A stretch of 64,000 bases of DNA, from the NCBI GenBank assembly GCA_026004535.1, contig BPJI01000001.1:233491-297490 (forward strand). Direction: 5' to 3'. Positions 10,474 to 33,762 of the stretch are shown here, in pieces. The DNA comes from Candidatus Parcubacteria bacterium (GTDB taxonomy: Bacteria; Patescibacteriota; Minisyncoccia; UBA6257; HR35). The notes beneath the pieces were generated by a model. That model made no database searches. It was not told the DNA's origin and saw nothing but the letters and a program-made list of their open reading frames with translations. Both the position numbers and the translations under genes were made by a program. Every line of letters begins with the position of its first letter. Within the stretch, counting starts at the first letter, position 1.

Positions 10474-10645
10474 AAACCAAATTTTTACTTTAAGATTTGG
10501 TTCTACATAATTTATCAATTTCTTAAAGAATTTAGAATTATAAAAAATCATTAACAATATTCAATTTTTACTATATTTAAATAAAAAAATTAAAAGTAAA
10601 GGATATTATTGAATTATAAAAGTTGATTTTGAGAAAGAAAACTAT

Positions 10646-11047
10646 CTAGTTAGTTTTAACTTCGAGTGTTTTTTTCAAAATATTAACTAACTCATTTAAA
10701 TCTGTTGCTTTTCTTAAATAGTCAACCGCGCCAATTTCACCAGCAATTTTTTTATGATATTTAGCCAACTCAGCATCTAAATCGTCAATTGAAGTAATAA
10801 AGAAAATTTTTATATTTTTAAGTTCAGGATTTTCTTTGATAGCCAAAAAAGTTTCTACTCCATCCATTTCAGGCATGGTATTATCTAATAAAATAACATC
10901 AGGTTTGTTAGTTTTTAAAATTTCTAAAGCAACTTTACCATTTTCAGCCTCTAAGACATTAAAATTGGCAGATTGTAATTTTATCTTCCATATCTCACGA
11001 AAATTTTTATCATCATCAACAATTAAAATCAAAGGTTTATTATTCAT
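10646..11047 (-). CDS. response regulator, receiver domain only (CheY-like)
   Basis: ILIVDDD..DVILLDNTMPEMDG..K motif set, 133 aa, no output domain. Confidence 0.75.
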   Translation of the reverse strand: MNNKPLILIVDDDKNFREIWKIKLQSANFNVLEAENGKVALEILKTNKPDVILLDNTMPEMDGVETFLAIKENPELKNIKIFFITSIDDLDAELAKYHKKIAGEIGAVDYLRKATDLNELVNILKKTLEVKTN

Positions 11048-11439
11048 TGCAAAAATTCTTTTATTTTTTTAATTATATCAGGCAAATCAGTTGTTTTACG
11101 GATAACCCCAACCGCTCCAATGCTTTTGGCATAATTATCATCAATTTTTGTTCCATCGTTATTATATTGTAAATTGGTAATTAAAATTATTGGTGGACAT
11201 TCTTTGCCAAGATCTCTTTGCAAATAACAAAACAGACTAAAACCATTTAAAATAGGCATTGATAAATCTAAAAGAATTAAATCAGTATTTTTGCAAACAG
11301 AAATATTTTTTAATGCTTCCTGAGGATCAGTAAAACCAATGACATCAAAGCCCTCTTTTTTAAGAACAAATGAAAAGAGTTCAACAAATGATTTTTCGTC
11401 GTCAATTAAAACAATTTTTTTGGCCATTTGTTCGGCCAT
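11044..11439 (-). CDS. response regulator, receiver domain only (CheY-like)
   Basis: VLIDDE..LILLDLSMP receiver motifs, 131 aa. 4-nt overlap with downstream receiver gene. Confidence 0.75.
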   Translation of the reverse strand: MAEQMAKKIVLIDDEKSFVELFSFVLKKEGFDVIGFTDPQEALKNISVCKNTDLILLDLSMPILNGFSLFCYLQRDLGKECPPIILITNLQYNNDGTKIDDNYAKSIGAVGVIRKTTDLPDIIKKIKEFLQ

Positions 11440-11478
11440 TAATTAAATTATAATACTAAATTTGTCAAGATGTCAAGC

Positions 11479-13068: not shown

Positions 13069-13069
13069 A

Positions 13070-14134
13070 TTATAACCAATTTATTATTGGTTGTCTTTTA
13101 TAAGATACTGCTGATGGAGGCTGTGTCTTTCCTATTCTAAAAAGAAAAGCTAAAATTTTATTTTTTTCATTAACATCAAAAACGTCAATTATTTTTTGAT
13201 AAGATTCATTTATTATTTGTTTTTCTCTTTTACTAAAGGTATTATCATCTTCTGAATTGATTCTTTGCCATAAAAACGGTACTCCTGTAATTAAATGAAA
13301 ACCTAAATTTAATTTTGTAGATCTGAGCCAGATATTTTCTAATAATTTCCCGGCATAGATAAAATCAGAATCATTATTGTTGATGAACATACCGCCGATT
13401 AAGGCACACGATTGAGCTGTTTTAATGCTACCTTGATTAATTTTTTTGACAAAACCTATCTTTTTAAAAATACTTAATATCGGCCAATATCTAAAAAGTT
13501 TAAAAATTTTAATTGCCTGGGGAGGTATTTCTAGTGTTCTTACGTATAATCCACTTTTATAGTGTTGCTCTTTCTCTTCAAATAAAATCTCTTTAAACAT
13601 AAGTTTATGCATTGTTCTGTTCGAAAAATTTATCAATGAATCCTTAGTAATATTCTGTGCTAAATTTTCTATTTTTGTTCTATCGTCTATTAGGATAACC
13701 TTGCACTGAGGATAATTCGATATTTCTTTTAATAGAAAAGTTTTTTCGTTTTCTTGAAGTGGTTCAGTGCTGAATGGTTTTCTGTTAGAGCATCTTTTTT
13801 CAATAAATTCAAAAAGATCTTCATTGCTTTCTGTGTCTGAGTTTAGCGGTATAAATCTTATTGCCAAAGATATTCTATTACGAGGAAAAATTTCGTAATT
13901 TATTTTGTAACCAAAATGTTTAGCAGCTATTTCTATGTTTTCTAATAAGGCGCCATGAGCAATATAGGTCCCTCGGTTTTTATAATTTAATATTGGATGA
14001 TCTTTTTCTGGCAGCATAACCACTTCTAAAACTGATTCATTGATTTTAACATTAAATTCCCATGGTTGAGAGTTTCCACCAGAAGGAGCAAGATTACCAG
14101 CTTTAATTATTTGTTCTAACAATTCTTTTTCCAT
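13070..14134 (-). CDS. nitroreductase-superfamily protein with two tandem half-domains (SagB/McbC-type dehydrogenase-like)
   Basis: APSGGNSQPWEF motif near N-terminus and second RCSNRKPFSTEP nitroreductase start ~110 aa later. 2-nt gap to the kinase gene. Confidence 0.55.
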   Translation of the reverse strand: MEKELLEQIIKAGNLAPSGGNSQPWEFNVKINESVLEVVMLPEKDHPILNYKNRGTYIAHGALLENIEIAAKHFGYKINYEIFPRNRISLAIRFIPLNSDTESNEDLFEFIEKRCSNRKPFSTEPLQENEKTFLLKEISNYPQCKVILIDDRTKIENLAQNITKDSLINFSNRTMHKLMFKEILFEEKEQHYKSGLYVRTLEIPPQAIKIFKLFRYWPILSIFKKIGFVKKINQGSIKTAQSCALIGGMFINNNDSDFIYAGKLLENIWLRSTKLNLGFHLITGVPFLWQRINSEDDNTFSKREKQIINESYQKIIDVFDVNEKNKILAFLFRIGKTQPPSAVSYKRQPIINWL

Positions 14135-14168
14135 TCTTATATTATATTTTTATTTTAATTAAAATTTT

Positions 14169-15284
14169 TCAAAAATTAAAAAACTTTCTAATTTTATTTA
14201 AAAATTTTTTTCTTTTGATTTCATTTTTGTTAAATTCAGGATCTAAAATTTTTTCGATATTGAAATCATATTTTCCCGATCTGATTTTCTTACCCAGAAG
14301 AATACTTCTTACAGTATAGGCAGTTATGCCAGCCGAGATGAAGGCTGCTGTTGAGAGCTGGGGCCAAGAATATAATGTTTTTCCTATTTCTAATACTGAA
14401 GTTAAAGATCTTAAAGGTACTAAGTTTAAATCTATAATTTTAGCCATTGCTTCATAAAGTTTTTGTGGTGATTTTTTTATCTCATCGAAATTAAATCCTG
14501 TTAATCGCCCTCCAAAAATTTCTAAATTTTTATCAATATCAAACCTTTCAACATCTAAAATAACATTATCGCCATTATCAGTAGCCATAACAACAGGAAT
14601 TTTTAGCTTTTTAGCTTCTTCTCGAATTTTAACTTTGATTACAACATCGTCTAGCTCTTCGATAATAATATCCAATCCTCTAATGAAAGTTTTGTAATTC
14701 CTATCATTAAGACCTTCGTTAAATACTTCTATTTTTAAATAGGGATTTAATTGATAAGCAAAGCAAAATAATGCTTCAGTTTTATTTGCCCCGACCCAGG
14801 TGAAATCAAATGGCATTCTGTTTAAATTACTAGGAGCAATAAAATCTGGGTCAGATATTTTAAAATGTCTTCCCACGCCCATCAATAAAAGACATAAAAA
14901 TATATTACTTCCAACACTTAAACCAGCAATACCTATTTTAGAGTTATAAATTTTATTCTGTTCTTCGAGGGTAATTAGGTTTCTATTTCTTGCCAACCTA
15001 ACTTCCTGGTGCAATTTATCTGGTAAATAATGAACCAAATATTTATTCCATGGAAAATAAACCCAATTACCCAATTTTGTTAACGATTTACCATTCGTAT
15101 GTTTTTTTACAAACAGTTCAAATTCTTGTTGATAATTTTTATTAAATTTGAATCGTGGATTCCTTATTAAAAACAAATCCTCGAGTTGAAGCTTATAAGT
15201 ATCAATTATTCTATTAACTTTATATTTTCTTGAAAATTCTTTTAAATTTAATTTGTCAGCTTTGATAATTATCGGCTTAAGCAT
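14169..15284 (-). CDS. E1-like ThiF/MoeB/MccB-family adenylyltransferase with ~85-aa N-terminal extension
   Basis: RLARNRNLITLEEQNKIYNSKIGIAGLSVGS (Rossmann/GxGxxG) and ISDPDFIAPSNLNRM (E1 DxD...SNLNRQ motif). The Cys-free N-terminal extension precedes the E1 core. Confidence 0.7.
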   Translation of the reverse strand: MLKPIIIKADKLNLKEFSRKYKVNRIIDTYKLQLEDLFLIRNPRFKFNKNYQQEFELFVKKHTNGKSLTKLGNWVYFPWNKYLVHYLPDKLHQEVRLARNRNLITLEEQNKIYNSKIGIAGLSVGSNIFLCLLLMGVGRHFKISDPDFIAPSNLNRMPFDFTWVGANKTEALFCFAYQLNPYLKIEVFNEGLNDRNYKTFIRGLDIIIEELDDVVIKVKIREEAKKLKIPVVMATDNGDNVILDVERFDIDKNLEIFGGRLTGFNFDEIKKSPQKLYEAMAKIIDLNLVPLRSLTSVLEIGKTLYSWPQLSTAAFISAGITAYTVRSILLGKKIRSGKYDFNIEKILDPEFNKNEIKRKKFLNKIRKFFNF

Positions 15285-15285
15285 T

Positions 15286-16803
15286 TTATCTGGTTAAAAC
15301 CCATTTATGTTTACTGCCTGATTTAAAAAATTTTTCATGTCCATATGGCCAAAATATTAATTTTGGATAAGCTCTTTCTTTTAAATTGTTTGACAATTCT
15401 CTATATTCCGATGATTTTTCTCTTAAGGTTTCAACAATTTTTTTAAGGGCTATTTTCTCGTAATATTTTTTAAAAACAACCCCCTTTTTAAGTTCTAAAT
15501 TAATTTCTAAATATTGATTTTGTTTAGGGTTATATTTTGTTGTCATGGTAAATTTGCCTGTTAGGAAGCTGGATAATTCTTTACTTAATATAGCTGATTT
15601 TATAAACTCTGGAAAGATTAAAATAGCATATAAAGTCGTAGCTAAATTTTTCCGTTCATAAACATAAACAAAAGGCAGTTCAAATAATAAACTATCTATT
15701 TTGTATTTTCTGGCTATTTTAATAATATCTAGTTTTTTATTTTTAAAATAATCTTTAAAATATGAATAATTGAATATTCCTCCTCTATCGCCAATTTGAT
15801 ATCTAATTAAAGGTATAGCATTATCACCTGTTAGAATTAGTTCGCCATTTTCTTCTTCAAAATTCACAAAATAAGGTATAAATTGCGCTAAAGTAGGAGT
15901 TTTGCTGATGTCGCCGAATGTCTCCTTTAAAAAATTTTTATTTTTAACACAAAGATGTCTGATTAGGGCTGCTAACGGTGTTTCAAAGGCGGTAGCACCA
16001 AATTCAGAAGAGCCATAAGCGTTCATTATGTCTAATAGTATATTAAGATTAAGTTTTTCTTTGAAGTAATATTTTAATTCTTCAGGGAAAGGTTCGCCCG
16101 CTAAAATTAATCTTATTTTAATCCTGGAAATGTCAATTTTACTATCAATAAGTTCATCAATTATATCTTTGACAAATGGAGGATAGCCTGCTATTATTAT
16201 TTGTCTATAGTAAGGCGCAATATCTTTAAAAATTTTGATTACTTCTTGTTTATTAACCCCAGGTGAAATAATTGAAAGATTTGTCCGGCCTAATGCATTG
16301 CCTAAATAGCAACCTAATAACATCCCGACGCCAGCACTCCAGACGCCCATTCCAAAAGTAATAATAAATAATGTCGGTTTGGTTAAAAATGATGGACGAT
16401 AACTTAAAAATAATTCTGTTCCTATCTCTCGAATTAAGTCAAATCTCGGTTCTCTAAAAAAATATGTTGGTTTACCGGTTGTGCCTGATGAAGCATGGAT
16501 AGTTAGGGGTTTTTGAAAAGTGCCATCCCATAATAATTTTTTATAATCATAATAATGAACATAATTTTCTTTTGTTGTTGGAGGTAATAATTTAAAATCT
16601 TCTAAAGTTTTTATTTTTTCAGGATTAACTTTATTTCTTTTGAGAAAGTCTTTATAAGCAGGTACTTTCTGAGCCGCCATGTGAAAAAGTTTTAGGGTGC
16701 GTTCTTCTTTTATTTTATCCCAATCTTTAATTTTATTTATCTTGATTTCTGATATTATTTTATTAATAAATTTCCTGAATTGTTTTATATTATGGGGAAA
16801 CAT
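15286..16803 (-). CDS. adenylate-forming enzyme, PaaK/coenzyme-F390-synthetase-like (ANL superfamily)
   Basis: AMP-binding P-loop ASSGTTGKPT and YQIGDRG motif typical of the phenylacetate-CoA ligase clade. 505 aa. Confidence 0.65.
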   Translation of the reverse strand: MFPHNIKQFRKFINKIISEIKINKIKDWDKIKEERTLKLFHMAAQKVPAYKDFLKRNKVNPEKIKTLEDFKLLPPTTKENYVHYYDYKKLLWDGTFQKPLTIHASSGTTGKPTYFFREPRFDLIREIGTELFLSYRPSFLTKPTLFIITFGMGVWSAGVGMLLGCYLGNALGRTNLSIISPGVNKQEVIKIFKDIAPYYRQIIIAGYPPFVKDIIDELIDSKIDISRIKIRLILAGEPFPEELKYYFKEKLNLNILLDIMNAYGSSEFGATAFETPLAALIRHLCVKNKNFLKETFGDISKTPTLAQFIPYFVNFEEENGELILTGDNAIPLIRYQIGDRGGIFNYSYFKDYFKNKKLDIIKIARKYKIDSLLFELPFVYVYERKNLATTLYAILIFPEFIKSAILSKELSSFLTGKFTMTTKYNPKQNQYLEINLELKKGVVFKKYYEKIALKKIVETLREKSSEYRELSNNLKERAYPKLIFWPYGHEKFFKSGSKHKWVLTR

Positions 16804-16824
16804 TTTTTTAAATTTTTATCGTTT

Positions 16825-17289
16825 TTAAACATTTTTAGTAACTTCATTATATGACTTGCCATTAGTAACTAAAATGCCGATAAAAAACCCCGAACCTTTT
16901 ATGTACCGATGTGAGTGCTTAATACCAGCTGGTATATAGACAGCAACAGGTGAATTTAATATATAATTTTCATCACCTAAAAATACTTCTACTTTTAAAC
17001 CTTTAAGATTTTTTTTATTTCCAATCCACATATACATTTGATCAACAGAATGACTATGATATGAAACATGAGGTTTTGTATTTTTAACATTATCTAAAAC
17101 CCTACAAGCTACGAATAACTTACCTTTTGGGTTATTAATATTATCAGAAAATTTATACAAATATGGAGTAAGCCCTTTAACTATATGATGAGCCGACATA
17201 TTGGTAAATAATTCTTTTCTAGGAGTTAAAATTAAGTTTTTAAATTTATTTTTATGAGTCGTTTTTTTATTTTTTTGTGTTCGTTTCAT
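16825..17289 (-). CDS. small cupin-fold protein (likely starts at internal Met ~17196)
   Basis: HSHSVDQMYMWI...GD..YIPAGIKHS resembles the two-motif cupin signature. K-rich N-terminal 30 aa probably not translated. Confidence 0.4.
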   Translation of the reverse strand: MKRTQKNKKTTHKNKFKNLILTPRKELFTNMSAHHIVKGLTPYLYKFSDNINNPKGKLFVACRVLDNVKNTKPHVSYHSHSVDQMYMWIGNKKNLKGLKVEVFLGDENYILNSPVAVYIPAGIKHSHRYIKGSGFFIGILVTNGKSYNEVTKNV

Positions 17290-17569
17290 TGTTTTAGAAT
17301 AATTAAATTACGACATTGAGAATTATAAATATTATTCAAATTTGATATAAACTTCGACCTTACTTTGCTCTGTCTATTTGTTTTTTGCCTAAATTCAACC
17401 AATAATCAGATGGTAGTGTTTTTAATTCCTTTAATCTTTTATCTCCTCTTTGTGGATATTTAAAATATATAAATTTTTTATTATCCGTATAAAGTTTTTA
17501 AAATAACGTTTTTTTGAAATTTCAGACAATTTTCAACAATTTCAGATAGTGTATTTTAAACTAATTCTT

Positions 17570-17930
17570 CCTTAGTAAGCCATTTGATTTCTTCTACATT
17601 TTCAGGCGGTTCGAAGTTGTTTTGTTGATTTTTGTTATCAAGATAGCATACAATTACTGTTTTGAAAAAACCCTTGCTTTGTTTTATTAAGCGAAAATCT
17701 AAGGTATTTTGTACTTGATACATTGCTTTTACTTTATAACCTGTTTCATAGAGTACTATCTTTTCGGCTGCTTGTTCTCTTATATCTCCTTTTAATTGAT
17801 CGCCACTTGGAGTAAACCAAATAGGTCCGGGGTCATAATTTACTTCGCAAACTTCTAAAAAGCCTTTGGGAATTTCCTTTTTAACACCTAAAATTTCGTT
17901 CTTTTCATTAAAAACTCAAATAATTATGAA
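17570..17930 (-). pseudogene. NUDIX-hydrolase-like remnant without usable start codon
   Basis: Minus-strand translation gives ..PSGDQLKGDIREQAAEKIVLYETGYKV.. (Nudix-box-like G-x5-E-x7-REuxEExG pattern). The frame is bounded by a stop with no in-frame ATG until late. Confidence 0.3.
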
Positions 17931-18244
17931 GAATTGCATTTATATTTAATATTATAATTATATCATAACTTTACAAATCTATAATTTAATTTGATCTTGG
18001 TGATAGAGTAAATATAATTTTTTTTATTTTTTATAATCTTATTTTTTTATATTATATAATTTTAAATGACATTTATAGTTATTAATTAATACAATAGTAA
18101 TAGATAATTTCTCAATTTCTTAAGAAATTGAGAAAATCAGGTTAAAACACTTTAAATTCAATTTCCAACATGTGGAAGGCTACAAAACCCTCAATTTTCC
18201 TTAATTTTTTAACCTCCTCCAACTCTTGACAAATTGATTCTTGA

Positions 18245-18276
18245 CCCGAACCCTATGTGGTTTGGGGTTTTTGATG
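18245..18276 (+). terminator. hairpin + U-tract upstream of radical SAM gene (terminator/attenuator-like)
   Basis: CCCGAACC-ctatgt-GGTTTGGG followed by GTTTTTGATG. Confidence 0.3.
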
Positions 18277-18314
18277 TATTAAAGTAGAAATCTAAAAGAA
18301 AGGAGGTGAGAAAG

Positions 18315-19295
18315 ATGGAAATCCAAAATTTAATGAGACAAAATGAAATTCAAAGTCAGAAAGGAGGTAAAATGATGCGTCAGGTGACCCAGCAGCAGGT
18401 GAATCGTTGGCTTAGTGGTAGTCTTGACTTTATGTGGCTCGAGATCGCCAAAAAGTGCAACTTGCGATGCATCCACTGTTACGCTAGCTCCAGCCTACAC
18501 CTTCCTCTTTTTGGAAAAATGAGTAAAGAGGATCGGGAAAGGGTGCTTGATGAAGGTATTCAATTAGGATGCCGCAGAGTTCAGTTCATTGGCGGTGAAC
18601 CAACTCTTCGCCCACATCTTTTCGAACTCATCCAACATGCCAAAGATGTTGGTTATGAGTTCATTGAGGTGTTCACTAACGGGACAATCCTCAACGATCA
18701 AAGACTGCACAGGATCAAGAAGTTAGGCGTTCACCTTGCTTTTTCGCTCTATGCCAACAGCCCTGACATTCATGAAAAAATTACCCAAAGCAATGGTAGT
18801 TTTTACAGGACCTTGGGTAATATCAAAAAGGCTGTCGGCATGGGCATCCCAGTGCGCGTTGGTGTCATTGTTATAAATGGCATCAATGACCACGTCGTTG
18901 CAAACACTCTGTCTATGCTCCAAGAAATTGGAGTTCAGAATGTTAAAACAGACAGAGTGCGAGGGATTGGTCAAGGAGCAGAACTTAATCCCAACCAAGA
19001 TTCTTTTGCCGAACTCTGTGGAGAGTGCTGGAAAGGGAATATCAGGATTGATGCTGATGGCAAAGCTTCGCCGTGTGTGATGTCGTGGTTCTATGAAGTC
19101 GGGGAGGTTAGCCAAACTCGAGGGCTTGCAGATGTTGTGAGCTCTTCGAGATTAGCTGATTTTAGGAAGAAGATGGCTGATATAAATCTTAGTTCAAATC
19201 AGCCATTAAACTGTAACCCTCCATGCCCAGTCCTATGTGGCCCGGATGAAGGATGCGATCCTTGCGTTCCAATTTGCGATCCGTGTCAACCATAA
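18315..19295 (+). CDS. radical SAM enzyme with C-terminal SPASM/twitch-like Cys cluster and Cys/Pro-rich tail; GC-rich horizontally acquired gene
   Basis: CNLRCIHCY (CxxxCxxC), GGEP motif, C-terminal CGECWKG..ASPCVMSWF cluster, tail CNPPCPVLCGPDEGCDPCVPICDPCQP. Two SD-ATG pairs (AGGAGGTGA-N5-ATG at 18315; AAGGAGGT-N4-ATGATG at 18372). GC ~50% vs ~30% flanks. Confidence 0.8.
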   Translation: MEIQNLMRQNEIQSQKGGKMMRQVTQQQVNRWLSGSLDFMWLEIAKKCNLRCIHCYASSSLHLPLFGKMSKEDRERVLDEGIQLGCRRVQFIGGEPTLRPHLFELIQHAKDVGYEFIEVFTNGTILNDQRLHRIKKLGVHLAFSLYANSPDIHEKITQSNGSFYRTLGNIKKAVGMGIPVRVGVIVINGINDHVVANTLSMLQEIGVQNVKTDRVRGIGQGAELNPNQDSFAELCGECWKGNIRIDADGKASPCVMSWFYEVGEVSQTRGLADVVSSSRLADFRKKMADINLSSNQPLNCNPPCPVLCGPDEGCDPCVPICDPCQP

Positions 19296-19304
19296 CATGC
19301 TAAG

Positions 19305-19340
19305 GCGGCTGTAGATAAATACAGCCCCTTTTATCTTTTT
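19305..19340 (+). terminator. rho-independent terminator after radical SAM gene
   Basis: GGCTGTA-gataaa-TACAGCC stem-loop followed by CCTTTTATCTTTTT. Confidence 0.6.
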
Positions 19341-19407
19341 ATTGTATTATAAGTATTATAATTAAATAATTAATATTAACTAAATATTTTATTTAAAAAT
19401 TGAAACT

Positions 19408-20187
19408 ATGAAGTTAAGATTAAATTTTAAAGTTAATCCCTATTATTTATTAGCGAGTTATTTTGATTATTATGAAAATATTTTTTGGTGGGACCCTGAA
19501 AAGTATGATGATTTTTTAAAAGTTAAAAGGTTCCCTAAGTTTTTATACCAATCATTTTGGTTAAGAGAAAATAAAAGAATATTTTTAAAAGTAAATAACA
19601 AAAGATCTTTAAAACAATTATTTAATCTGCTTTATAAGAACTCCCGAGAATTATTTAATAAAATTTTAGAATCAAAAGAATTTAAAAAATTTCTAAAAGA
19701 GACCGAAGATTACTCTCAATGGTTAGAAAATGAATGGAACTTAAAAAAAGATATAGTCCTTAAAAATTTAGAAGATATTACTGGCCTAAAGATAATTGAT
19801 AAAAATTTAAATGTTGATGTTTTTGTTGTTAAACCACCTCTAAAAGGTGGTTTTGTTATTCCTCATAAAAAAATAATTGTCTGGGGGCATAGTGAGGATT
19901 GGTCTAATTATTCAATTGTCTATCTTTGCCATGAACTTTTACATATCTTAACTTATAAAAAATATAAACATCCTAACTTAATGCATGCTTTAATTGAATT
20001 AGCAACTGACAATGAATTAAGAATAAGACTTAATGGAGGTAAATATCCTCCTTTTGTTGGTCATTCTTATTTAGAAAATATAAAAAAGAAAATCTATCCT
20101 ATTTGGAAACAATATCTAAATAAAAAATTAAAAGTAAAAGATATTATTGAATTAGAAGAATTGATTTTGAGAAAGAAAATTATCTAA
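19408..20187 (+). CDS. hypothetical protein with HExxH motif (possible zinc-dependent hydrolase)
   Basis: YLCHELLHILT HExxH motif. No other recognisable domains. Confidence 0.3.
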   Translation: MKLRLNFKVNPYYLLASYFDYYENIFWWDPEKYDDFLKVKRFPKFLYQSFWLRENKRIFLKVNNKRSLKQLFNLLYKNSRELFNKILESKEFKKFLKETEDYSQWLENEWNLKKDIVLKNLEDITGLKIIDKNLNVDVFVVKPPLKGGFVIPHKKIIVWGHSEDWSNYSIVYLCHELLHILTYKKYKHPNLMHALIELATDNELRIRLNGGKYPPFVGHSYLENIKKKIYPIWKQYLNKKLKVKDIIELEELILRKKII

Positions 20188-20368
20188 TTTGTTTTAGATT
20201 ATAATTTTATTATGATTAATTTTCTTTTGGGGTTTTGGACAGCTGATTTATTATTTTCGCTTGTTTTGTATTTTAAAAAAGAGATAATTTTTAATTTAAG
20301 CAAAGATTATATTCTTTTTTCAATTATTGTCGATATTTTGTTGTTGATTTTTCTTTTATTTTTAAAGT

Positions 20369-22177
20369 ATGGCAGAAAATTTAGAAAAACTTAGACATTC
20401 ATTAGCACATCTTTTGGCATCAGCAGTTTTAAAGATTGATCCTCGGGCAAAATTGGGTATTGGCCCAACAACCGAAGATGGTTTTTATTATGATTTTCTC
20501 TTTTCAATTAAAGTTGATGAAAGTCTTTTGCCAAAATTAGAATCAATAATGAAAGATTTAATTTCTCAGAATTTAAAATTTGTTGGTAAGAAAATTTCTT
20601 TTCCTCAAGCTAAAAAAATTTTTAAAAATCAGCCTTTTAAATTAGAGCTGATTAATGATTTAAAAAAATATGGCACAACTGATTTTCAGGAGATTCAATT
20701 AATTAAAGCCAAAAAGAAGAAAGCAAAAAAATTAGCTCGAGTAACAATTTATCAAACAGGTGATTTTATTGATTTATGCCGTGGCGGTCATATTAAAAGC
20801 ACCAAAGAAATAAATCCTCAAGCTTTTAAATTAATAAGAATTGCTGGTGCTTATTGGCGAGGAGATGAGAAAAATCCAATGCTAACAAGAATTTATGGAG
20901 TTGCTTTTAAAACCGAAAAAGAATTAGACGAATATTTAAAAAAACAAGAAGAGGCAGAAAAATATAATCATCGGGTTTTAGGAGAAAAATTAAAGATATT
21001 TTTAATTAGTCCTTATATTGGCAAAGGATTACCATTGCTTTTACCCAAAGGAGAAATTATTAAAAATATTTTAATTAAATACATGAGAAAGAAAGAAGAA
21101 AAATATGGCTACACTTATGTTGCCACTCCTCATGTTGCTTCTTCTAAACTTTACGAAAAAAGTGGACATTTGAAATATTACCAAAATGAAATGTATAAAG
21201 TTATTGATCCTGCAGAAGGAGAAGATTTTTATTTAAAGCCAATGAATTGTCCGCACCATCATCTGATTTACCAAGAATTAGTTAAAAGTTATCGCGATCT
21301 ACCTTTAAGATTAGCCGAAGCTGGAGCAGTTTATCGTGTTGAAAAATCTGGAGAAACTTATGGACTCATGAGAGTAAGAGGACCAATTACTCAAAATGAT
21401 GCTCATATTTATGTTAATGAACAAAATTTAGAAGAAGAATTTTTAAAAGTTTTAGATTTATTATCAGAAGTTTATGACGATCTTAAAATTATTCAAAATT
21501 ATTGGTTTCGACTTTCTTTGCCAGATTTTTCAGGCAAAAATAAAGAGAAATATGGCGGTGATTTAAGACTTTGGCAATGGGCAAGTAAAATTATCAACAA
21601 TGCTTGTCAAAAGAAAAAAATTAATTTAGTTAAAGGTTTAGGTGAGGCTGCTTTTTATGGGCCAAAATTAGATATGCAGATTAAAAACATTTATGGCAAA
21701 GAAGAAACAATAGCCACAATCCAAGTTGATATTTTAGTACCTAAAAGAATGGGACTTGTCTATGTTGATAAAAATAATAAAGAAAAAAATCCAATTGTGA
21801 TTCATCGAGCAATTTTAGGTTCTTATGAAAGATTTATTGGGTTTTTATTAGAAGCAACCAAAGGAGATTTGCCTTTATGGCTTTCACCAATTCAAGTTTT
21901 AATTTTGCCCGTCGGTAATGAGCATCAAGATTATGCTGAAGAAATTAAGCAAAAAATTTCTGATTTTAGAGTTGAAATTTGGCCAGCTGAAGAAAGTTTG
22001 GCCAAAAGAATTTTATTAGCTGAAGAAGAAAAAATCCCAGTTATTTTAGTTGTTGGTGAACGAGAAAAGAAGAATAAAACTATTTCTTTAAGATTAAGGC
22101 ATCAGAAAGATTTGGGTGAGAAAAAAATAGAAGAAATTATTAAATTATTAAATGAAGAAGGAGATATCCCTAATTAA
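20369..22177 (+). CDS. thrS: threonyl-tRNA synthetase (lacks N-terminal TGS domain)
   Basis: Starts at editing-domain motif RHSLAHLLA..GPTTEDGFYYDF. Class II motifs, anticodon-binding C-terminus. 602 aa. Confidence 0.9.
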   Translation: MAENLEKLRHSLAHLLASAVLKIDPRAKLGIGPTTEDGFYYDFLFSIKVDESLLPKLESIMKDLISQNLKFVGKKISFPQAKKIFKNQPFKLELINDLKKYGTTDFQEIQLIKAKKKKAKKLARVTIYQTGDFIDLCRGGHIKSTKEINPQAFKLIRIAGAYWRGDEKNPMLTRIYGVAFKTEKELDEYLKKQEEAEKYNHRVLGEKLKIFLISPYIGKGLPLLLPKGEIIKNILIKYMRKKEEKYGYTYVATPHVASSKLYEKSGHLKYYQNEMYKVIDPAEGEDFYLKPMNCPHHHLIYQELVKSYRDLPLRLAEAGAVYRVEKSGETYGLMRVRGPITQNDAHIYVNEQNLEEEFLKVLDLLSEVYDDLKIIQNYWFRLSLPDFSGKNKEKYGGDLRLWQWASKIINNACQKKKINLVKGLGEAAFYGPKLDMQIKNIYGKEETIATIQVDILVPKRMGLVYVDKNNKEKNPIVIHRAILGSYERFIGFLLEATKGDLPLWLSPIQVLILPVGNEHQDYAEEIKQKISDFRVEIWPAEESLAKRILLAEEEKIPVILVVGEREKKNKTISLRLRHQKDLGEKKIEEIIKLLNEEGDIPN

Positions 22178-23447
22178 ATTTCTATTTGTTCTTTTGGATA
22201 TTTTTTTGTTCTTTTTAGCTTTAAATTTGGCTTTAGCTTTTCGTTTTGGCCTGAATTATTCAATTTATCTTCAGGAACATATTTTGCCATTTTTATTTTT
22301 GCTGCCGTTCTATGTTTTTCTTTTATTTACTTTTAATCTTTATGATTTCTATTTATTAAATTTGAAAATTTTATTACAAAGAATTTTTTATTTTTTTCTT
22401 TTGGCTTTAATTTTAAGCGTTATTTATTTTTACTTTGGGCAAACAATTTTTAAAATATCTCCTAAAACCAACCTTTTAATTTTTCTTTTTTCCTTTCTTT
22501 TGCTTTTATTTATCTCTCGTCATTTAATTTTAAAGATCTTCCAAAAAAGAAAAATTACTGTTTATTTTTTGGGCGATGAAAATTTGAAAAATAAACTAGA
22601 GACTGATTTAAAAAATCACCCCTTTTTTATTTTTAAAGAAATATCGGGACATAATATGCCCCGAATATTAAAGGGCGAAAATAATTCTTATGTTATCTTA
22701 GTAATTGCTCCTCATTATCACTTAAAACCAAACGATTTTCAAGAGATTTTAAAGGAAGAAATAACAATTTTTGATTTTGTTGATTTTTATGAGAAATTTT
22801 TAGGCAGAATTCCCCTAGAGGCAATTGACAGTGATTGGTTAATTAGAGAAATAGCTAGTGGTAAATCAAACTTTTATTTTTATTTTAAAAGAGGAATTGA
22901 TGTTATTGTTTCTGTCTTTTTGTTATTATTTTTATTTTTACCTTTATTTTTACCAATTGCTTTTTTAATTTATCTTTCTGATCCTGGACCAATATTTTTT
23001 ACTCAGCCCCGAGTTGGTTATAAAAGACAAATTTTTAAATTGATAAAATTTAGAACAATGAGACAAGAAAAGGAAGAACATGGTAAATGGGCTGTTGGTA
23101 GTGAAGAGAAGAGAATTTTCTTTATTGGTAAAATTTTAAGAAAGACTCATTTAGACGAACTACCTCAAATATTTAATATTCTTAAAGGAGAACTAACTTT
23201 AGTTGGGCCAAGACCAGAACAACCAAAAATTTTCGAGGATTTAGAAAAAGAAATTCCTTTCTATGAGCTGAGGGCCTTAGTTTTGCCTGGTTTTACTGGC
23301 TGGGCTCAGGTTAATTATAAATATCCAGAAAACATTGAGGAAACAAAAATCAAACTTGAATACGATCTTTATTACTTGAAAAACAATAATTTATTTTTAG
23401 ATTTTTTGATTATAATTAAAACATTCCATAAGTTATTGACATTTTAA
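22152..23447 (+). CDS. polyprenyl-phosphate glycosyl-1-phosphate transferase (bacterial sugar transferase, WbaP/WcaJ-like)
   Basis: Four N-terminal TM helices. C-terminal sugar-transferase domain with KFRTM and ELPQIFNILKGELTLVGPRP. Confidence 0.75.
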   Translation: MKKEISLIKFLFVLLDIFLFFLALNLALAFRFGLNYSIYLQEHILPFLFLLPFYVFLLFTFNLYDFYLLNLKILLQRIFYFFLLALILSVIYFYFGQTIFKISPKTNLLIFLFSFLLLLFISRHLILKIFQKRKITVYFLGDENLKNKLETDLKNHPFFIFKEISGHNMPRILKGENNSYVILVIAPHYHLKPNDFQEILKEEITIFDFVDFYEKFLGRIPLEAIDSDWLIREIASGKSNFYFYFKRGIDVIVSVFLLLFLFLPLFLPIAFLIYLSDPGPIFFTQPRVGYKRQIFKLIKFRTMRQEKEEHGKWAVGSEEKRIFFIGKILRKTHLDELPQIFNILKGELTLVGPRPEQPKIFEDLEKEIPFYELRALVLPGFTGWAQVNYKYPENIEETKIKLEYDLYYLKNNNLFLDFLIIIKTFHKLLTF

Positions 23448-23505
23448 AAATTTTAAGGTAAAATTAGTTTAAAGGTCGTCATTTTATTTTTAATTAATTT
23501 TTAAA

Positions 23506-24702
23506 ATGGCAGCAAAATTTGAAAGAACAAAACCACATATCAATGTCGGTACTATTGGTCATGTTGATCATGGTAAAACAACCTTAACTTCGGCAATTAC
23601 TCATGTTCTAAAACTTAAAGGTTTGGTCGAAAGAGAATTAGCCTATGAAGAAATTGATAAAGCGCCAGAAGAAAAATCTAGAGGTTTGACTATTAACATT
23701 CACCACTGCGAATACGAGACAGAAAAAAGACATTATGCTCACATTGATGCTCCTGGGCATGTTGACTATGTCAAAAATATGATTGTTGGTGCGGCACAAA
23801 TGGATGGGGCAATTTTGGTCGTTGCCGCTAATGATGGTGTAATGGCTCAAACAAGAGAGCACATTTTATTAGCTCGTCAAGTTAACGTTCCAGCCATCGT
23901 TGTTTTTATTAATAAAGTTGACATGGTACCTGATAAAGAATTGATTGATTTAGTTGAAGAAGATGTAAGAGCTGAATTAAAAAAGCATGGCTATCCAGGA
24001 GATGAAATACCGGTTATTCGTGGTTCAGCTTTAAAAGCTGTAGAGGCAAAATCATTAGACGATCCTTGGGCAAAGCCAATCTTAGAACTTCTAGATACTT
24101 TAGATAATTATATTCCTGAACCAGTTCGTGATGTTGATAAGCCATTTTTGATGCCAATTGAGGATGTTTTCTCAATTGAGGGTCGGGGTACAGTTGTTAC
24201 TGGTAGAGTTGAAAGAGGAAAAATTAAAGTTAATGATGAAGTTGAAATTGTTGGTTTAAAACATGAACCAATAAAAACAGTTGTTACAGGTATTCAAATG
24301 TTTCACAAGGATATGGACGAAGCAATTCCTGGTGATAATGTTGGTTTACTTTTAAGAGGTGTTAAAAAAGAAGATGTTGAAAGAGGAATGGTTGTGGCTA
24401 AACCAGGTACAATTACTCCTCATACTGATTTTGAAGCCGAAGTTTATGTTCTCAAAGCCGAAGAAGGTGGAAGACACACACCATTTCATACTGGATATAA
24501 ACCTCAATTTTATATTCGAACGACAGACGTTACTGGTGAAGTTACTTTACCTGAAGGCATTGAGGCAGTAATGCCAGGTGATAATGCTAAAATGATTGTT
24601 AAGTTAATTTATCCTGTTGCCTTAGAAGAAGGTTCAAGATTTGCTATTCGTGAAGGTGGAAGAACAGTTGGTGCTGGAGTTGTAACTAAAATTTTGAAAT
24701 AA
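23506..24702 (+). CDS. tuf: elongation factor Tu
   Basis: [19 protein letters not shown] motifs. 398 aa. Immediately precedes rpsJ. Confidence 0.95.
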
Positions 24703-33690: not shown

Positions 33691-33762
33691 GCCGAGGTAG
33701 CTCAACGGTAGAGCAGGGGCTTTGTAAGCCCAAGGTTAGGGGTTCGAATCCCCTCCTCGGCT
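33691..33762 (+). tRNA. tRNA-Thr (anticodon TGT)
   Basis: Manual fold: acceptor GCCGAGG/CCTCGGC, D-arm GCTC-AACGGTA-GAGC, anticodon loop TTTGTAA, T-arm AGGGG-TTCGAAT-CCCCT, discriminator T. CCA not encoded. Confidence 0.8.

What the first reader, a model, noticed from the sequence alone, without database searches (positions are those of the whole stretch)
18372..19340. Sharply GC-rich single-gene island: horizontally acquired radical SAM/SPASM enzyme grafted onto local expression signals
From the ATGATG at 18372 to just past the terminator at ~19340, GC content jumps to roughly 50% against ~30% on both sides. Boundaries coincide with one ORF and its own rho-independent terminator. The gene encodes a radical SAM protein (CxxxCxxC) with SPASM/twitch-like auxiliary-cluster cysteines, the class that matures RiPPs, sulfatases and cofactor peptides. 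It sits divergently next to the E1/nitroreductase/ligase operon, separated by a ~1-kb AT-rich spacer containing a NUDIX pseudogene remnant. The un-ameliorated composition suggests a recent transfer from a much higher-GC donor.
Basis: seen in the sequence. Interest (0 to 1): 0.72.

Follow-up and report, generated by a model that had tools for sequence, protein, structure and literature searches.

The report
Foreign radical-SAM gene carrying its own peptide
A single gene with foreign base composition in a tiny hot-spring bacterium is real and was acquired horizontally. It is half of a two-gene peptide-modifying module, and the enzyme probably carries the peptide it modifies fused to its own tail.

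Summary
The GC island is real. Window 18372-19295 has 46.1% GC and GC3 of 0.45. The 66 other ORFs have GC3 of 0.185±0.03 (z=8.8), and this is the only such region in 64 kb. The source is a PacBio-HiFi Parcubacteria MAG (KatS3mg096), so an assembly chimera is unlikely.

The gene is an intact radical SAM enzyme of an unnamed, widespread subfamily. It has a CxxxCxxC motif, a half-SPASM (twitch-like) domain, and a Cys/Pro-rich tail.

It is not a lone gene. The AT-rich gene directly downstream (19408-20187) is an HExxH…ExxxD gluzincin-like protein. It lies beside the closest homologues of this enzyme in other Patescibacteria, which have 51-61% GC. The donor pool is therefore Patescibacteria, not a distant phylum.

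The acquisition is not clearly recent. The same GC-rich gene, terminator and AT-rich partner layout occurs in two related lineages. Synonymous sites between the window and one of them are saturated.

The locus carries recombination scars: a mosaic partner gene, a partner 3' remnant at 10578-10648, and presence/absence polymorphism in relatives.

In relatives, peptides resembling the tail are encoded as separate precursor genes next to the enzyme. The tail is therefore probably a fused RiPP core, an architecture like that of borosins. This is inferred and has not been shown experimentally.

The parts
18341..19330 (+). GC-rich segment (about 46% GC) that makes up the compositional island
   Evidence: 60-bp GC profile and sliding windows. 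GC3 0.448 against 0.185±0.03. Codon bias z=4.5.
18372..19295 (+). Radical SAM enzyme ORF of 307 aa. Alternative in-frame starts are ATG 18315 and GTG 18306.
   Evidence: Pfam Radical_SAM 92.5 bits and SPASM 27.6 bits. No NCBIfam equivalog reaches its cutoff. AF2 pLDDT 88; best fold match is SkfB, TMq 0.71. dN/dS is well below 1 against relatives.
18300..18374 (+). Two Shine-Dalgarno/start pairs in one frame: AAGGAGGTG with ATG 18315, and AAAGGAGGT (18360-18368) with ATG 18372
   Evidence: Read from the sequence. The same double arrangement is present in L001.
18456..18479 (+). CxxxCxxC motif (C29, C33, C36) for the radical-SAM [4Fe-4S] cluster
   Evidence: Invariant in the 48-sequence alignment A6 and in A1.
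19017..19076 (+). Auxiliary-cluster cysteines C216, C219 and C235 (C-x2-C-x10-G-x4-C). This is the first half of a SPASM or twitch domain.
   Evidence: C216 and C235 are invariant and C219 is at least 90% conserved in A6. The Pfam SPASM match covers profile positions 3-53 of 67 only.
19212..19292 (+). Cys/Pro-rich C-terminal tail CNPPCPVLCGPDEGCDPCVPICDPCQP. It is a candidate fused core peptide.
   Evidence: AF2 pLDDT is below 50 here. The tail aligns with free-standing precursor cores in L120, L073, L059, L066 and L070, sharing the motif C.P…C[DN]PC.P-COOH. It is the only such segment in the window.
19302..19345 (+). Intrinsic terminator (hairpin 19302-19330 plus U-run) between the rSAM gene and the partner
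   Evidence: -16 kcal/mol, z=-3.5. Equivalent hairpins occur in L114 (-28) and L001 (-19.9). The hairpin is partly conserved between the window and L114.
19408..20187 (+). Conserved partner gene: a 259-aa HExxH…ExxxD gluzincin-like protein (H175, E176, H179, E197, D201). It is AT-rich (GC 0.235, GC3 0.17).
10578..10648 (+). Degraded copy of the partner gene's 3' end. It is about 90% nt identical to 20118-20187, matches 18 of 21 aa, and has an internal stop. It sits at the ancestral dtd-to-partner position.
   Evidence: tblastn, sequences, alignment A5. Synteny LepA…dtd-partner is seen in L115 and L116.
17556..17903 (-). NUDIX pseudogene fragment in the spacer. It is an open frame with no start before M at 17723.
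   Evidence: Pfam NUDIX E=6.7e-7. Translation. ORF list.
18245..18266 (+). Terminator-like hairpin plus U-run in the leader, about 35 nt upstream of the first SD. Its function is unknown.
   Evidence: -12.7 kcal/mol, z=-2.2, weak. No Rfam family matches.

Best explanation
The island is one intact, horizontally acquired gene. It belongs to a Patescibacteria peptide-maturation (RiPP-type) module.

The enzyme. It is a short radical SAM protein with a (β/α)6 core, a CxxxCxxC motif, and one twitch/half-SPASM auxiliary-cluster site (C216, C219, C235). It has no RRE domain. Its last ~27 residues (CNPPCPVLCGPDEGCDPCVPICDPCQP) are not a folded Fe-S domain. They are the equivalent of the core peptide that related systems encode as a separate precursor gene.

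Inferred mechanism:
1. The enzyme reductively cleaves SAM.
2. The 5'-deoxyadenosyl radical abstracts an H atom in the Cys/Pro/Asp-rich tail, either its own or that of a neighbouring subunit.
3. Cys-to-carbon (thioether-type) cross-links form, as in the twitch enzyme SkfB.
4. The downstream HExxH…ExxxD gluzincin-like partner then cuts the modified peptide off the enzyme body.

Inferred evolution. The rSAM half came from a higher-GC member of the Patescibacteria gene pool, where rSAM and partner are neighbours. It was integrated by recombination at the resident partner locus, which ancestrally was LepA…dtd-partner. This left a mosaic partner gene and a partner 3' remnant. The arrival predates the split from lineage L114. 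The gene has been only partly ameliorated, or is re-acquired repeatedly.

Shown: the composition anomaly, gene integrity, partner synteny, the fold assignments, the fused and split peptide architectures, and the recombination scars.

Inferred: the chemistry, self-modification, the cleavage role of the partner, and the direction and timing of transfer.
For: Composition and integrity. Purifying selection: dN 0.24 with saturated dS against L001, and dN/dS of about 0.19 for L001-L108.

Not a chimera: HiFi source and Logan contig L113 identical across the right junction.

Partner synteny. Homologues at 40% identity abut the rSAM in L004/5/7, L006/8, L109, L110-112 and L073.

Donor pool. {window, P0001, P0002} nest inside the partner-associated Patescibacteria clade (NJ tree; organisms; GC 0.51-0.61).

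RiPP context of the partner. Wolfebacteria loci L120-125 hold an ABC exporter, an M16 peptidase, two partner paralogues, a long RRE+SPASM rSAM, a 46-aa Cys/Pro peptide and an MvdD-type ATP-grasp. L116 has partner, a 98-aa ORF, then an ATP-grasp.

Tail as core peptide:
- Free peptides lie downstream of long full-SPASM rSAMs in L120 and L073.
- Free peptides lie just upstream of tail-less short-family members in L059, L066 and L070. L059 and L066 share a conserved leader, and L066 has a weak NHLP-like match.
- All of these align with the fused tails on C.P…C[DN]PC.P-COOH.
- Tail-less members keep only the three core auxiliary cysteines.
- The tail is predicted to be disordered.
- P0095 has a tandem-repeat tail, PCDPDLEPL ×3.
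- There is no other candidate precursor in the window.

Best structural match: SkfB, a twitch-domain thioether-forming RiPP maturase.

Scars: partner mosaic; remnants in the window and in L001; L116 and L115 lack the rSAM although the L001 partner 5' end is 96.3% identical to that of L116.
Against: - No chemistry was tested.
- Several tail positions are at least 90% conserved across phyla (C281, C298 and flanking prolines). This would also fit metal or cluster ligands that replace the missing second half of the SPASM domain. RiPP cores are usually more variable than this.
- The tail is low-complexity, so the alignment with free precursors could partly reflect composition.
- The partner is uniformly AT-rich and the rSAM is not. 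That is awkward for joint transfer of the pair.
- In the putative donors the two genes are convergent, but here they are co-directional.
- The three closest rSAM genes all have about 45% GC in AT-rich flanks (WIN, L001) and GC-rich flanks (L108). Simple amelioration from a 55-60% donor does not predict this.
- The left junction lacks a second assembly.
- L001/L116 could be paralogous loci of one genome rather than presence/absence alleles.
Confidence: 0.55

Rival explanations
1. A single, recent transfer of a lone radical SAM/SPASM maturase gene came from a much higher-GC, phylogenetically distant donor. It landed behind local expression signals and has not been ameliorated.
For: Sharp gene-length GC3 anomaly. 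Own terminator. The family is often compositionally discordant with its hosts and occurs on plasmids and next to IS elements. L116 and L115 lack the gene.
Against: The nearest relatives are Patescibacteria genes that carry the same partner. The layout is shared with L114 and L001-3, so it is older than at least one split. WIN-L001 synonymous sites are saturated, yet both genes have GC3 of 0.41-0.45. The closest genes are 45-46% GC, not high GC.
Confidence: 0.15
2. The gene is a long-term resident of this Parcubacteria lineage. Its ~45% GC is held up by selection, for example on codon choice or translation speed for Fe-S loading, on mRNA structure, or on a biased amino-acid composition. It is not explained by recent foreign origin.
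For: Three lineages (WIN, L114, L001) share the position next to the partner. WIN-L001 dS is saturated, yet GC3 is about the same (0.45 and 0.41). A simple two-state decay argument (my inference) says neutral amelioration should have erased the signal over that divergence. GC1 and GC2 are raised partly by Cys, Pro, Gly, Val and Arg content.
Against: A related long-type rSAM in Portnoybacteria (L073) has GC 0.31 and GC3 0.23 in a 0.26 flank, so the fold tolerates AT-rich coding. No other gene in 64 kb, ribosomal genes included, exceeds GC3 0.26. L116 and L115 lack the gene at a tight dtd-partner junction. L108 shows the same ~46% GC gene in 60-77% GC flanks. The 43-codon L114 tail has GC3 of 0.18 against 0.33 in the window, which hints at ongoing decay (small sample).
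Confidence: 0.15
3. The Cys/Pro-rich tail is simply a degenerate second half of the SPASM domain, or another metal-binding tail, that ligates auxiliary Fe-S clusters. The true substrate is elsewhere: a separate peptide, the partner protein, or a small molecule as with MoaA, BlsE or DesII.
For: Seven tail cysteines would be enough for the missing SPASM ligands. C281, C298 and several prolines are at least 90% conserved across phyla. HMM and fold matches include the small-molecule twitch enzymes MoaA, BlsE, DesII and BtrN.
Against: Long relatives with a complete canonical SPASM (CSECEYRYCCFDC…C) still have a peptide with the same motif as a separate gene. Tail-less short members exist, and they have a leader+core precursor gene directly upstream. 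The tail has pLDDT below 50, whereas the rest of the protein is above 90. Tail length and repeat number vary widely.
Confidence: 0.3
4. Assembly or binning artefact. A fragment from a ~46% GC organism was joined into an AT-rich contig.
For: The two Logan short-read contigs found here end at 17402 and 18922. No second assembly was found for the left junction.
Against: The assembly is from PacBio HiFi reads with N50 of 10.5 kb on a 556-kb contig. Logan contig L113 crosses the right junction with 0 mismatches. Three other assemblies (L001-L003) and L114 show the same AT-rich to GC-rich junctions next to the same partner.
Confidence: 0.03

Closest known systems
SkfB (sporulation killing factor maturase) and other twitch/SPASM radical SAM RiPP maturases (AlbA, CteB, SuiB, StsB)
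   Same: Radical SAM core with CxxxCxxC and a C-terminal auxiliary-cluster β-hairpin (C…G-x4-C). SkfB is the best fold match to the model (TMq 0.71, E=1.8e-15). The Cys-rich peptide substrate suggests thioether-type cross-linking.
   Different: There is no N-terminal RRE/PqqD domain; the protein starts about 20 residues before CxxxCxxC. NCBIfam scores are 50-77 bits against cutoffs of 300-850. The canonical CX2CX5CX3C second half of the SPASM domain is absent. The putative substrate is fused to the enzyme. Sequence identity to SkfB is only about 23%.
Borosins (OphMA/omphalotin; split and fused bacterial borosins)
   Same: Architecture only. The core peptide is fused to the C-terminus of its modifying enzyme. 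Related systems have enzyme and precursor as separate genes, and a separate peptidase releases the product (literature: bioRxiv 10.1101/2021.12.24.474128, PMC8429565).
   Different: Borosin enzymes are SAM-dependent N-methyltransferases, not radical SAM enzymes. There is no homology. Self-modification here is inferred and was not tested.
αKG-dependent HExxH enzymes adjacent or fused to radical SAM maturases (ChlBH/ChlH, BpmH, PflC; IPR026337/TIGR04267)
CPR graspetide gene clusters with metallopeptidases (Makarova et al. 2022, PMC8939145)
   Same: RiPP loci in Patescibacteria that combine ATP-grasp (MvdD-like) ligases, SPASM radical SAM enzymes and uncharacterised metallopeptidases. Here L120-125 and L116 place the partner family in exactly such loci.
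   Different: The window has no ATP-grasp gene near the module. Whether the partner is one of the two metallopeptidase clusters in that paper was not checked against their data.
MoaA (GTP 3',8-cyclase) and other small-molecule twitch enzymes (BlsE, DesII, BtrN)
   Same: Best NCBIfam and PDB sequence matches over the N-terminal radical SAM core (95 bits). Twitch-type single auxiliary site.
   Different: Scores are far below the equivalog cutoffs (95 against 325). The MoaA C-terminal GG and GTP-binding arginines were not examined. The genomic context is peptide-maturation genes, not molybdopterin genes.

Membership tests
Radical SAM superfamily (PF04055) | CxxxCxxC cluster motif and a Pfam score above the gathering threshold | tested here: met
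   C29-x3-C33-x2-C36 is invariant. PF04055 scores 92.5 bits against a cutoff of 29.5. The GGEP SAM-binding motif is invariant.
SPASM domain (PF13186/TIGR04085) | Seven-Cys motif: C-x9-15-G-x4-C, a gap, CX2CX5CX3C, a gap, then C. It binds two auxiliary [4Fe-4S] clusters. | tested here: inconclusive
   The first half is present (C219-x10-G230-x4-C235), and Pfam SPASM scores 27.6 against 21.5 but covers profile positions 3-53 of 67 only. No canonical CX2CX5CX3C is present. A proline-rich CX3CX3CX5CX2CX3CX2C tail with pLDDT below 50 stands in its place. The long relative L120 has the canonical motif.
Named radical SAM equivalogs (MoaA, PqqE, AlbA, SkfB, StsB, anSME-like, NirJ/Ahb, mycofactocin MftC, viperin) | Whole-protein NCBIfam score at or above the curated cutoff | tested here: not met
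   The best is 95.3 bits for archaeal MoaA against a cutoff of 325. All others are 48-87 bits against cutoffs of 180-850. The same holds for 10 homologues. PADLOC pVip hits are core-only.
RRE-dependent RiPP maturases (sacti-/ranthipeptide synthases) | N-terminal RiPP recognition element (PqqD-like winged helix) | tested here: not met
   Only about 20 residues precede CxxxCxxC, or about 40 with the upstream start. There is no PqqD hit. The long relative L120 has a ~100-aa N-extension with a weak PqqD hit.
Gluzincin zinc metallopeptidases (partner gene 19408-20187) | HExxH plus a Glu third ligand about 18-20 residues downstream in an ExxxD motif; zincin fold | tested here: met
αKG-dependent HExxH hydroxylases (TIGR04267/IPR026337) | Sequence membership in the mod_HExxH family; Fe(II)/αKG dependence | tested here: not met
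Horizontally acquired genomic island | Composition and codon usage outside the genome's gene-to-gene variance | tested here: met
   GC3 z=8.8 and codon-bias z=4.5. It is the only outlier in 64 kb.
Horizontally acquired genomic island | Mobility hallmarks: an integrase or transposase, a tRNA target, flanking direct repeats | tested here: inconclusive
   No integrase or transposase is present in 10-24 kb, and the only tRNA is at 33691. The one repeat pair is the partner 3' end (10578-10648 against 20118-20187). It brackets 9.5 kb, not the 1-kb island.
Horizontally acquired genomic island | Phylogenetic incongruence, or patchy presence among close relatives | tested here: inconclusive
   L115 and L116 have dtd-partner without the rSAM. 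L001 has the rSAM beside a partner whose 5' end is 96% identical to that of L116. The partner gene is mosaic. No species tree was available, and L001 and L116 could be paralogous loci.
Enzyme-core fusion RiPPs (borosin-like architecture) | The core peptide is part of the modifying enzyme's polypeptide and is modified and then released | not testable with these tools
   Sequence evidence only. The tail aligns with free precursor cores in split relatives. Modification and release need biochemistry.

The most novel reading that the evidence does not exclude
The short radical SAM family, found in at least 531 GTDB species representatives from Patescibacteria and DPANN archaea to Acidobacteria and Streptomyces, would define an undescribed RiPP class. 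Its Cys/Pro-rich core (…C.P..C[DN]PC.P-COOH) is usually fused to the C-terminus of its own twitch-type radical SAM maturase. It is sometimes split off as a leader+core gene upstream or downstream. That would be the first radical SAM counterpart of the borosin 'enzyme carries its own substrate' architecture. In Patescibacteria it is coupled to a dedicated new gluzincin family that releases the peptide. The enzyme gene also moves among genomes as a single-gene cassette that keeps about 45% GC, recombining at the partner locus.
Probability: 0.45. Interest if true: 0.8.

Novelty: new variant of a known kind. Interest (0 to 1): 0.6.

Why it matters
As a GC island, the finding is a clear but ordinary case of horizontal acquisition in a reduced symbiont genome. 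Following it up gives three further results.

1. A compact two-gene peptide-maturation module (radical SAM enzyme plus a new HExxH gluzincin family) recurs in Patescibacteria. The secondary metabolism of these organisms and the molecules they use on their hosts are almost unknown.

2. There is sequence-level evidence that a large, unnamed radical SAM subfamily carries its substrate peptide fused to its own C-terminus, with split variants in relatives. If confirmed, this adds a new architecture and probably a new cross-linked peptide class to radical SAM RiPP chemistry. It also gives a simple one-protein system for studying substrate recognition without an RRE.

3. One gene stays about 20 GC points above its neighbours in several related AT-rich lineages, at a locus with a mosaic partner gene and gene remnants. 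That makes it a natural test of amelioration against recurrent gene replacement in ultra-small genomes.

Tried and rejected
- Closer relatives. The metagenome-contig scan with the close-clade alignment found nothing closer than 48% identity. The viral-contig scan found no relative. Plasmid tblastn gave only hits below 40% identity in Actinomycetes and others. The ~45% GC reservoir therefore remains unidentified.
- The window's own rSAM protein is not in the 5.8-billion-protein collection; the best hit is 62% identical. It could not be traced directly.
- Rfam found no riboswitch or RNA in the leader or the gene, either at gathering threshold or at E≤1.
- A structured RNA or antisense gene was considered as the cause of the GC. 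The antisense ORF 18723-19115 is what a GC-rich stretch gives by chance. I found no support for this and did not pursue it.
- Defence-system reading. PADLOC gave only generic viperin-core similarity, and nothing for the partner. Rejected.
- A separate precursor peptide upstream of the rSAM in module-bearing loci. No conserved SD-preceded small ORF was found, and there is none elsewhere in the window.
- A transposase reading of the 'CPNPNCPDYG' stretch after the L108 gene was rejected. It is the family's Cys/Pro tail in another frame.
- An integrase-type att model for the partner 3' repeat was rejected on geometry. The remnant lies upstream of the intact gene, not downstream.
- The afdb50 fold library was unavailable.
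- Independent confirmation of the left junction failed. Logan contig L119 ends at about 17402.
Full report
**1.

Window 18372-19295 has 46.1% GC. The 1-kb flanks have 26.2% (left) and 21.8% (right), and the window as a whole has 30.1%. For 924-bp sliding windows the mean is 0.300 with sd 0.032. This stretch is the only one above 0.38 in 64 kb.

The excess sits above all at synonymous positions. GC3 is 0.448 against 0.185±0.030 (maximum 0.26) in 66 other ORFs, z=8.8. GC1 and GC2 are raised less (z=2.6 and 1.7). Karlin codon bias relative to all other genes is 0.572 against 0.255±0.071. GC3 is high along the whole gene.

The left edge falls at the Shine-Dalgarno site and ATG (about 18341-18371). 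The right edge falls just after a hairpin plus U-run at 19302-19345 (-16 kcal/mol, z=-3.5). After that, GC drops to 7-15%.

The rest of the description is correct: the ORF, the terminator, the divergent ThiF/nitroreductase/PaaK-like operon, and the ~1-kb spacer with a start-less NUDIX fragment.

**2. Source and the artefact question**

The downstream protein is 100% identical to KatS3mg096_249 of a Candidatus Parcubacteria MAG, on a 556,583-bp contig. That data set is a PacBio HiFi assembly (read N50 10.5 kb) of 52 °C hot-spring sediment (PMC9671151).

An independent Logan assembly contig (L113) equals window 18922-24187 without a mismatch, so it crosses the right junction. The left junction has no second assembly, because L119 stops at about 17402. 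However, four other assemblies from related organisms show the same AT-rich to GC-rich junction beside the same neighbour. I put a chimera at about 3%.

**3. What the gene encodes**

- Pfam gives Radical_SAM (92.5 bits) and SPASM (27.6 bits, first two-thirds of the profile only).
- No NCBIfam equivalog comes near its cutoff. The best is MoaA at 95 bits against a cutoff of 325. The same holds for ten homologues.
- The AF2 model has pLDDT 88. It shows the partial TIM barrel, a β-hairpin and a helix of a twitch/SPASM domain. The last 28 residues have pLDDT below 50.
- Foldseek ranks SkfB, a twitch-domain thioether-forming RiPP maturase, first (TMq 0.71). MoaA, DesII, BlsE, SuiB and ChlB follow.
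- Among the Cys motifs, CxxxCxxC (C29/33/36), C216 and C235 are invariant, and C219 is at least 90% conserved.
- The canonical second SPASM motif CX2CX5CX3C is missing. In its place is CNPPCPVLCGPDEGCDPCVPICDPCQP.
- The gene is under purifying selection: dN 0.24 with saturated dS against L001, and dN/dS of about 0.19 for L001-L108.

The family is large and spread widely. Hosts include Patescibacteria, DPANN archaea, Acidobacteriota, Cyanobacteria, Proteobacteria and many Streptomyces.

**4. It is not a lone gene**

The AT-rich ORF directly downstream (19408-20187, 259 aa, no Pfam/NCBIfam/PADLOC hit) has 40%-identical homologues. These lie immediately next to the nearest rSAM homologues in L004/5/7, L006/8 (Jorgensenbacteria), L109, L110-112 and L073 (Portnoybacteria). 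That makes 11 loci in an unbiased neighbour clustering.

The partner family is Patescibacteria-wide and sits in RiPP-type loci. In Wolfebacteria (L120-125) two paralogues lie with an ABC exporter, an M16 peptidase, an MvdD-type ATP-grasp and a long rSAM/SPASM enzyme. In L116 the partner is followed by a 98-aa ORF and an MvdD-like ATP-grasp. CPR graspetide loci with uncharacterised metallopeptidases have been reported (PMC8939145).

**5. The tail looks like a fused substrate**

- Long relatives with separate peptides. The Wolfebacteria long rSAM has an N-terminal extension with a weak PqqD hit and a complete canonical SPASM (CSECEYRYCCFDC…C). A separate 46-aa gene follows it: MKNKKLKLEIKEVTRGGLVGAS-QCPVMGCTPNDPTQGCPPDPCNPR. 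Portnoybacteria L073 has the same arrangement, with MELQKVTPQEDRKDSG-PCNPEYGNCGPTTGGSCDPCSP.
- Tail-less short members with upstream precursors. Members of the short family that lack the tail keep only the three core auxiliary cysteines. Three of them have a leader+core gene upstream on the same strand. L059 (68 aa) and L066 have it directly upstream and share the leader motif K[KR]SLL.S.D.NQV.QLEA; L066 also has a weak NHLP-leader match. L070 has one about 1.2 kb upstream.
- Shared motif. These free cores align with the fused tails on C.P…C[DN]PC.P-COOH.
- Prevalence and variability. By a strict count, 98 of 122 fetched loci have the fused form. Tail length and repeat number vary; P0095 has PCDPDLEPL three times.
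- No alternative in the window. The window contains no other such peptide.
- No named family. No named precursor family matches. Literature searches returned only borosins as enzyme-core fusions.

I therefore favour, at about 0.45-0.6, that the window protein is a maturase with its own core peptide fused to it, and that the gluzincin partner releases the peptide. The chemistry (thioether-type cross-links, by analogy with SkfB and with sacti- and ranthipeptides) is inferred.

The main rival, at about 0.3, is that the tail is a proline-rich replacement for the second SPASM half that ligates clusters. The ≥90% conservation of C281, C298 and neighbouring prolines fits that reading.

**6. Origin of the GC anomaly**

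Across 80 GTDB loci the rSAM gene usually tracks its host's GC, although it is often 5-15 points discordant. This fits an HGT-prone family that is also found on plasmids and beside IS elements.

An NJ tree places {window, P0001, P0002} inside the clade whose members carry the partner (P0003-P0016). Those genes have GC 0.51-0.61 and GC3 0.52-0.75. The donor pool is therefore other Patescibacteria, not a distant phylum.

Three facts complicate 'recent':

(a) Lineage L114 has a partner that is 78% aa and 85% nt identical, with pS 0.36. It shares the rSAM tail, a partly conserved terminator hairpin, the AT-rich partner and the next small ORF. The gene was therefore in place before that split.

(b) L001-3 (rSAM 67% aa identical) have the same layout. 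WIN-L001 synonymous sites are saturated (pS 0.76), yet GC3 is 0.45 and 0.41.

(c) L108, whose gene is 80% aa identical to that of L001 (dS 0.64), has the same 46%-GC gene between 60-77% GC flanks. It is either another transfer or a chimeric 1.7-kb contig.

A rough two-state decay estimate (my inference) gives the following. The window-L114 divergence alone would bring a donor GC3 of about 0.65 down to about 0.45. That fits partial amelioration from the identified donor clade. The same argument cannot explain equal GC3 across the saturated WIN-L001 divergence unless acquisitions were independent or selection holds GC up.

Independent or repeated acquisition has some support. L116 and L115 have dtd and partner 3 bp apart and no rSAM. 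The L001 partner 5' end is 96.3% identical to that of L116, and homology begins 6 nt before the ATG. The caveat is that these could be two loci of one genome.

A related long-type rSAM in L073 is encoded at GC3 0.23. AT-rich coding of the fold is therefore possible.

**7. Scars at the locus**

- Mosaic partner. Residues 191-259 are 72-83% identical to the L115/L116 type. Residues 1-190 are only 16-36% identical to that type, but 51-55% identical (middle third, residues 96-190) to the rSAM-associated type. This indicates recombination near codon ~190.
- Remnant in the window. A ~70-nt degraded copy of the partner 3' end lies at 10578-10648, about 90% identical to 20118-20187 and with an internal stop. 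It follows LepA, a PDDEXK::dtd ORF and an ABC-F gene. That is where L115 and L116 have the intact partner.
- Remnant in L001. L001 has an analogous remnant about 130 nt upstream of its rSAM. Each remnant resembles its own lineage's partner.

About 8.8 kb lies between the remnant and the intact partner: two response regulators, a histidine kinase, the nitroreductase/ThiF/ligase operon, the NUDIX fragment and the rSAM. Only the rSAM is compositionally foreign.

I read this as insertion by recombination at the partner locus. The exact mechanism is unresolved. I considered Campbell-type integration of a circle carrying a partner copy; it fits the geometry but not the uniformly AT-rich partner. No integrase, transposase or tRNA target is nearby.

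**8. Verdict**

The gene is a horizontally derived radical SAM gene. It is half of a conserved Patescibacteria two-gene module and comes from a moderately GC-richer relative rather than a distant high-GC donor. It is not demonstrably recent.

The most interesting outcome lies outside the original claim. A large unnamed radical SAM subfamily appears to carry its substrate peptide as a C-terminal fusion, with split variants, and in Patescibacteria it is paired with a new gluzincin family. I rate this as a new variant of a known kind, with interest 0.6. The fused-core reading has a probability of about 0.45 and would merit about 0.8 if proven.

Noticed in passing
window 10578-10648 (+): Pseudogene fragment of the partner gene's last ~21 codons. 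18 of 21 aa are identical to 20122-20184, and it has an internal stop. It lies between the ABC-F gene and the 3' end of the minus-strand response-regulator gene, at the position where relatives L115 and L116 have the intact partner after dtd.
   Followed up: yes
window 7787-8866 (+): One 359-aa ORF combines a PD-(D/E)XK nuclease domain (PDDEXK_3, residues 67-180) with a D-Tyr-tRNA deacylase domain (residues 243-357). In relatives L115 and L116, dtd is a stand-alone 143-aa gene. This may be a nuclease inserted into or fused with dtd.
   Followed up: partly
window 10646-17289 (-): A minus-strand block lies between the partner remnant and the rSAM, with native AT-rich composition. It holds two response regulators, a 7TM histidine kinase, a nitroreductase-fold protein, a ThiF/E1-like protein (NCBIfam 'Rv1355c family', here split from the nitroreductase part), a PaaK-like adenylating ligase and a 154-aa unknown. 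E1-like plus SagB-like dehydrogenase genes are RiPP-typical, but no link to the rSAM module was seen in other loci.
   Followed up: partly
window 18108-18135 and 18245-18266: The spacer holds a 12-bp-arm palindrome, TTTCTCAATTTC-TTAA-GAAATTGAGAAA. A terminator-like hairpin plus U-run (-12.7 kcal/mol, z=-2.2) lies about 35 nt upstream of the first Shine-Dalgarno site of the rSAM gene. This may be an operator or attenuator. No Rfam match was found.
   Followed up: partly
window 18300-18374; L001 850-930: Two in-frame start sites each have a strong SD: AAGGAGGTG with ATG 18315, and AAAGGAGGT with ATG 18372. The second SD encodes the residues QKGG. The same double arrangement occurs in L001, which suggests two isoforms or translational coupling.
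   Followed up: no
L108 (JGI 3300020567, 1688 bp): A gene 80% aa and 88% nt identical to the L001 rSAM has GC 0.463. It lies between 60-77% GC flanks, including a WD40-repeat gene with GC3 0.87. About 70 nt of AT-rich leader is retained, and the Cys/Pro tail continues in another frame. This is either a transfer into a GC-rich genome or a chimeric short contig.
   Followed up: partly
L120-L125 (Wolfebacteria, e.g. L120 1-10807): A complete RiPP-like cluster seen in more than 20 assemblies. It holds an ABC exporter, an M16 peptidase, two tandem paralogues of the HExxH partner, an RRE+SPASM radical SAM enzyme with a 46-aa Cys/Pro-rich precursor overlapping its stop codon, several small ORFs, and an MvdD-type ATP-grasp.
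   Followed up: partly
window 20212-20394 (+): A 60-aa hydrophobic ORF (MINFLLGFWTADLLFSLVLYF…) lies directly after the partner and overlaps the ThrRS start. Its first ~43 residues are conserved almost unchanged in L114. It may be a small membrane protein belonging to the module, for immunity or export.
   Followed up: no
window 17402-18922: The two short-read (Logan, DRR290133) contigs found here end at about 17402 and start at 18922, inside the rSAM gene. The HiFi contig is continuous. The cause may be a coverage or strain-heterogeneity effect at the island.
   Followed up: no
L059 5721-5927; L066 5522-5902; L070 4549-4767: Candidate precursor genes lie upstream of tail-less members of the short rSAM family: an Edaphobacter, a deltaproteobacterial MAG and a Patescibacteria MAG. 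L059 and L066 share the leader motif K[KR]SLL.S.D.NQV.QLEA, and all three have Cys/Pro-rich cores. No named family matches them.
   Followed up: partly
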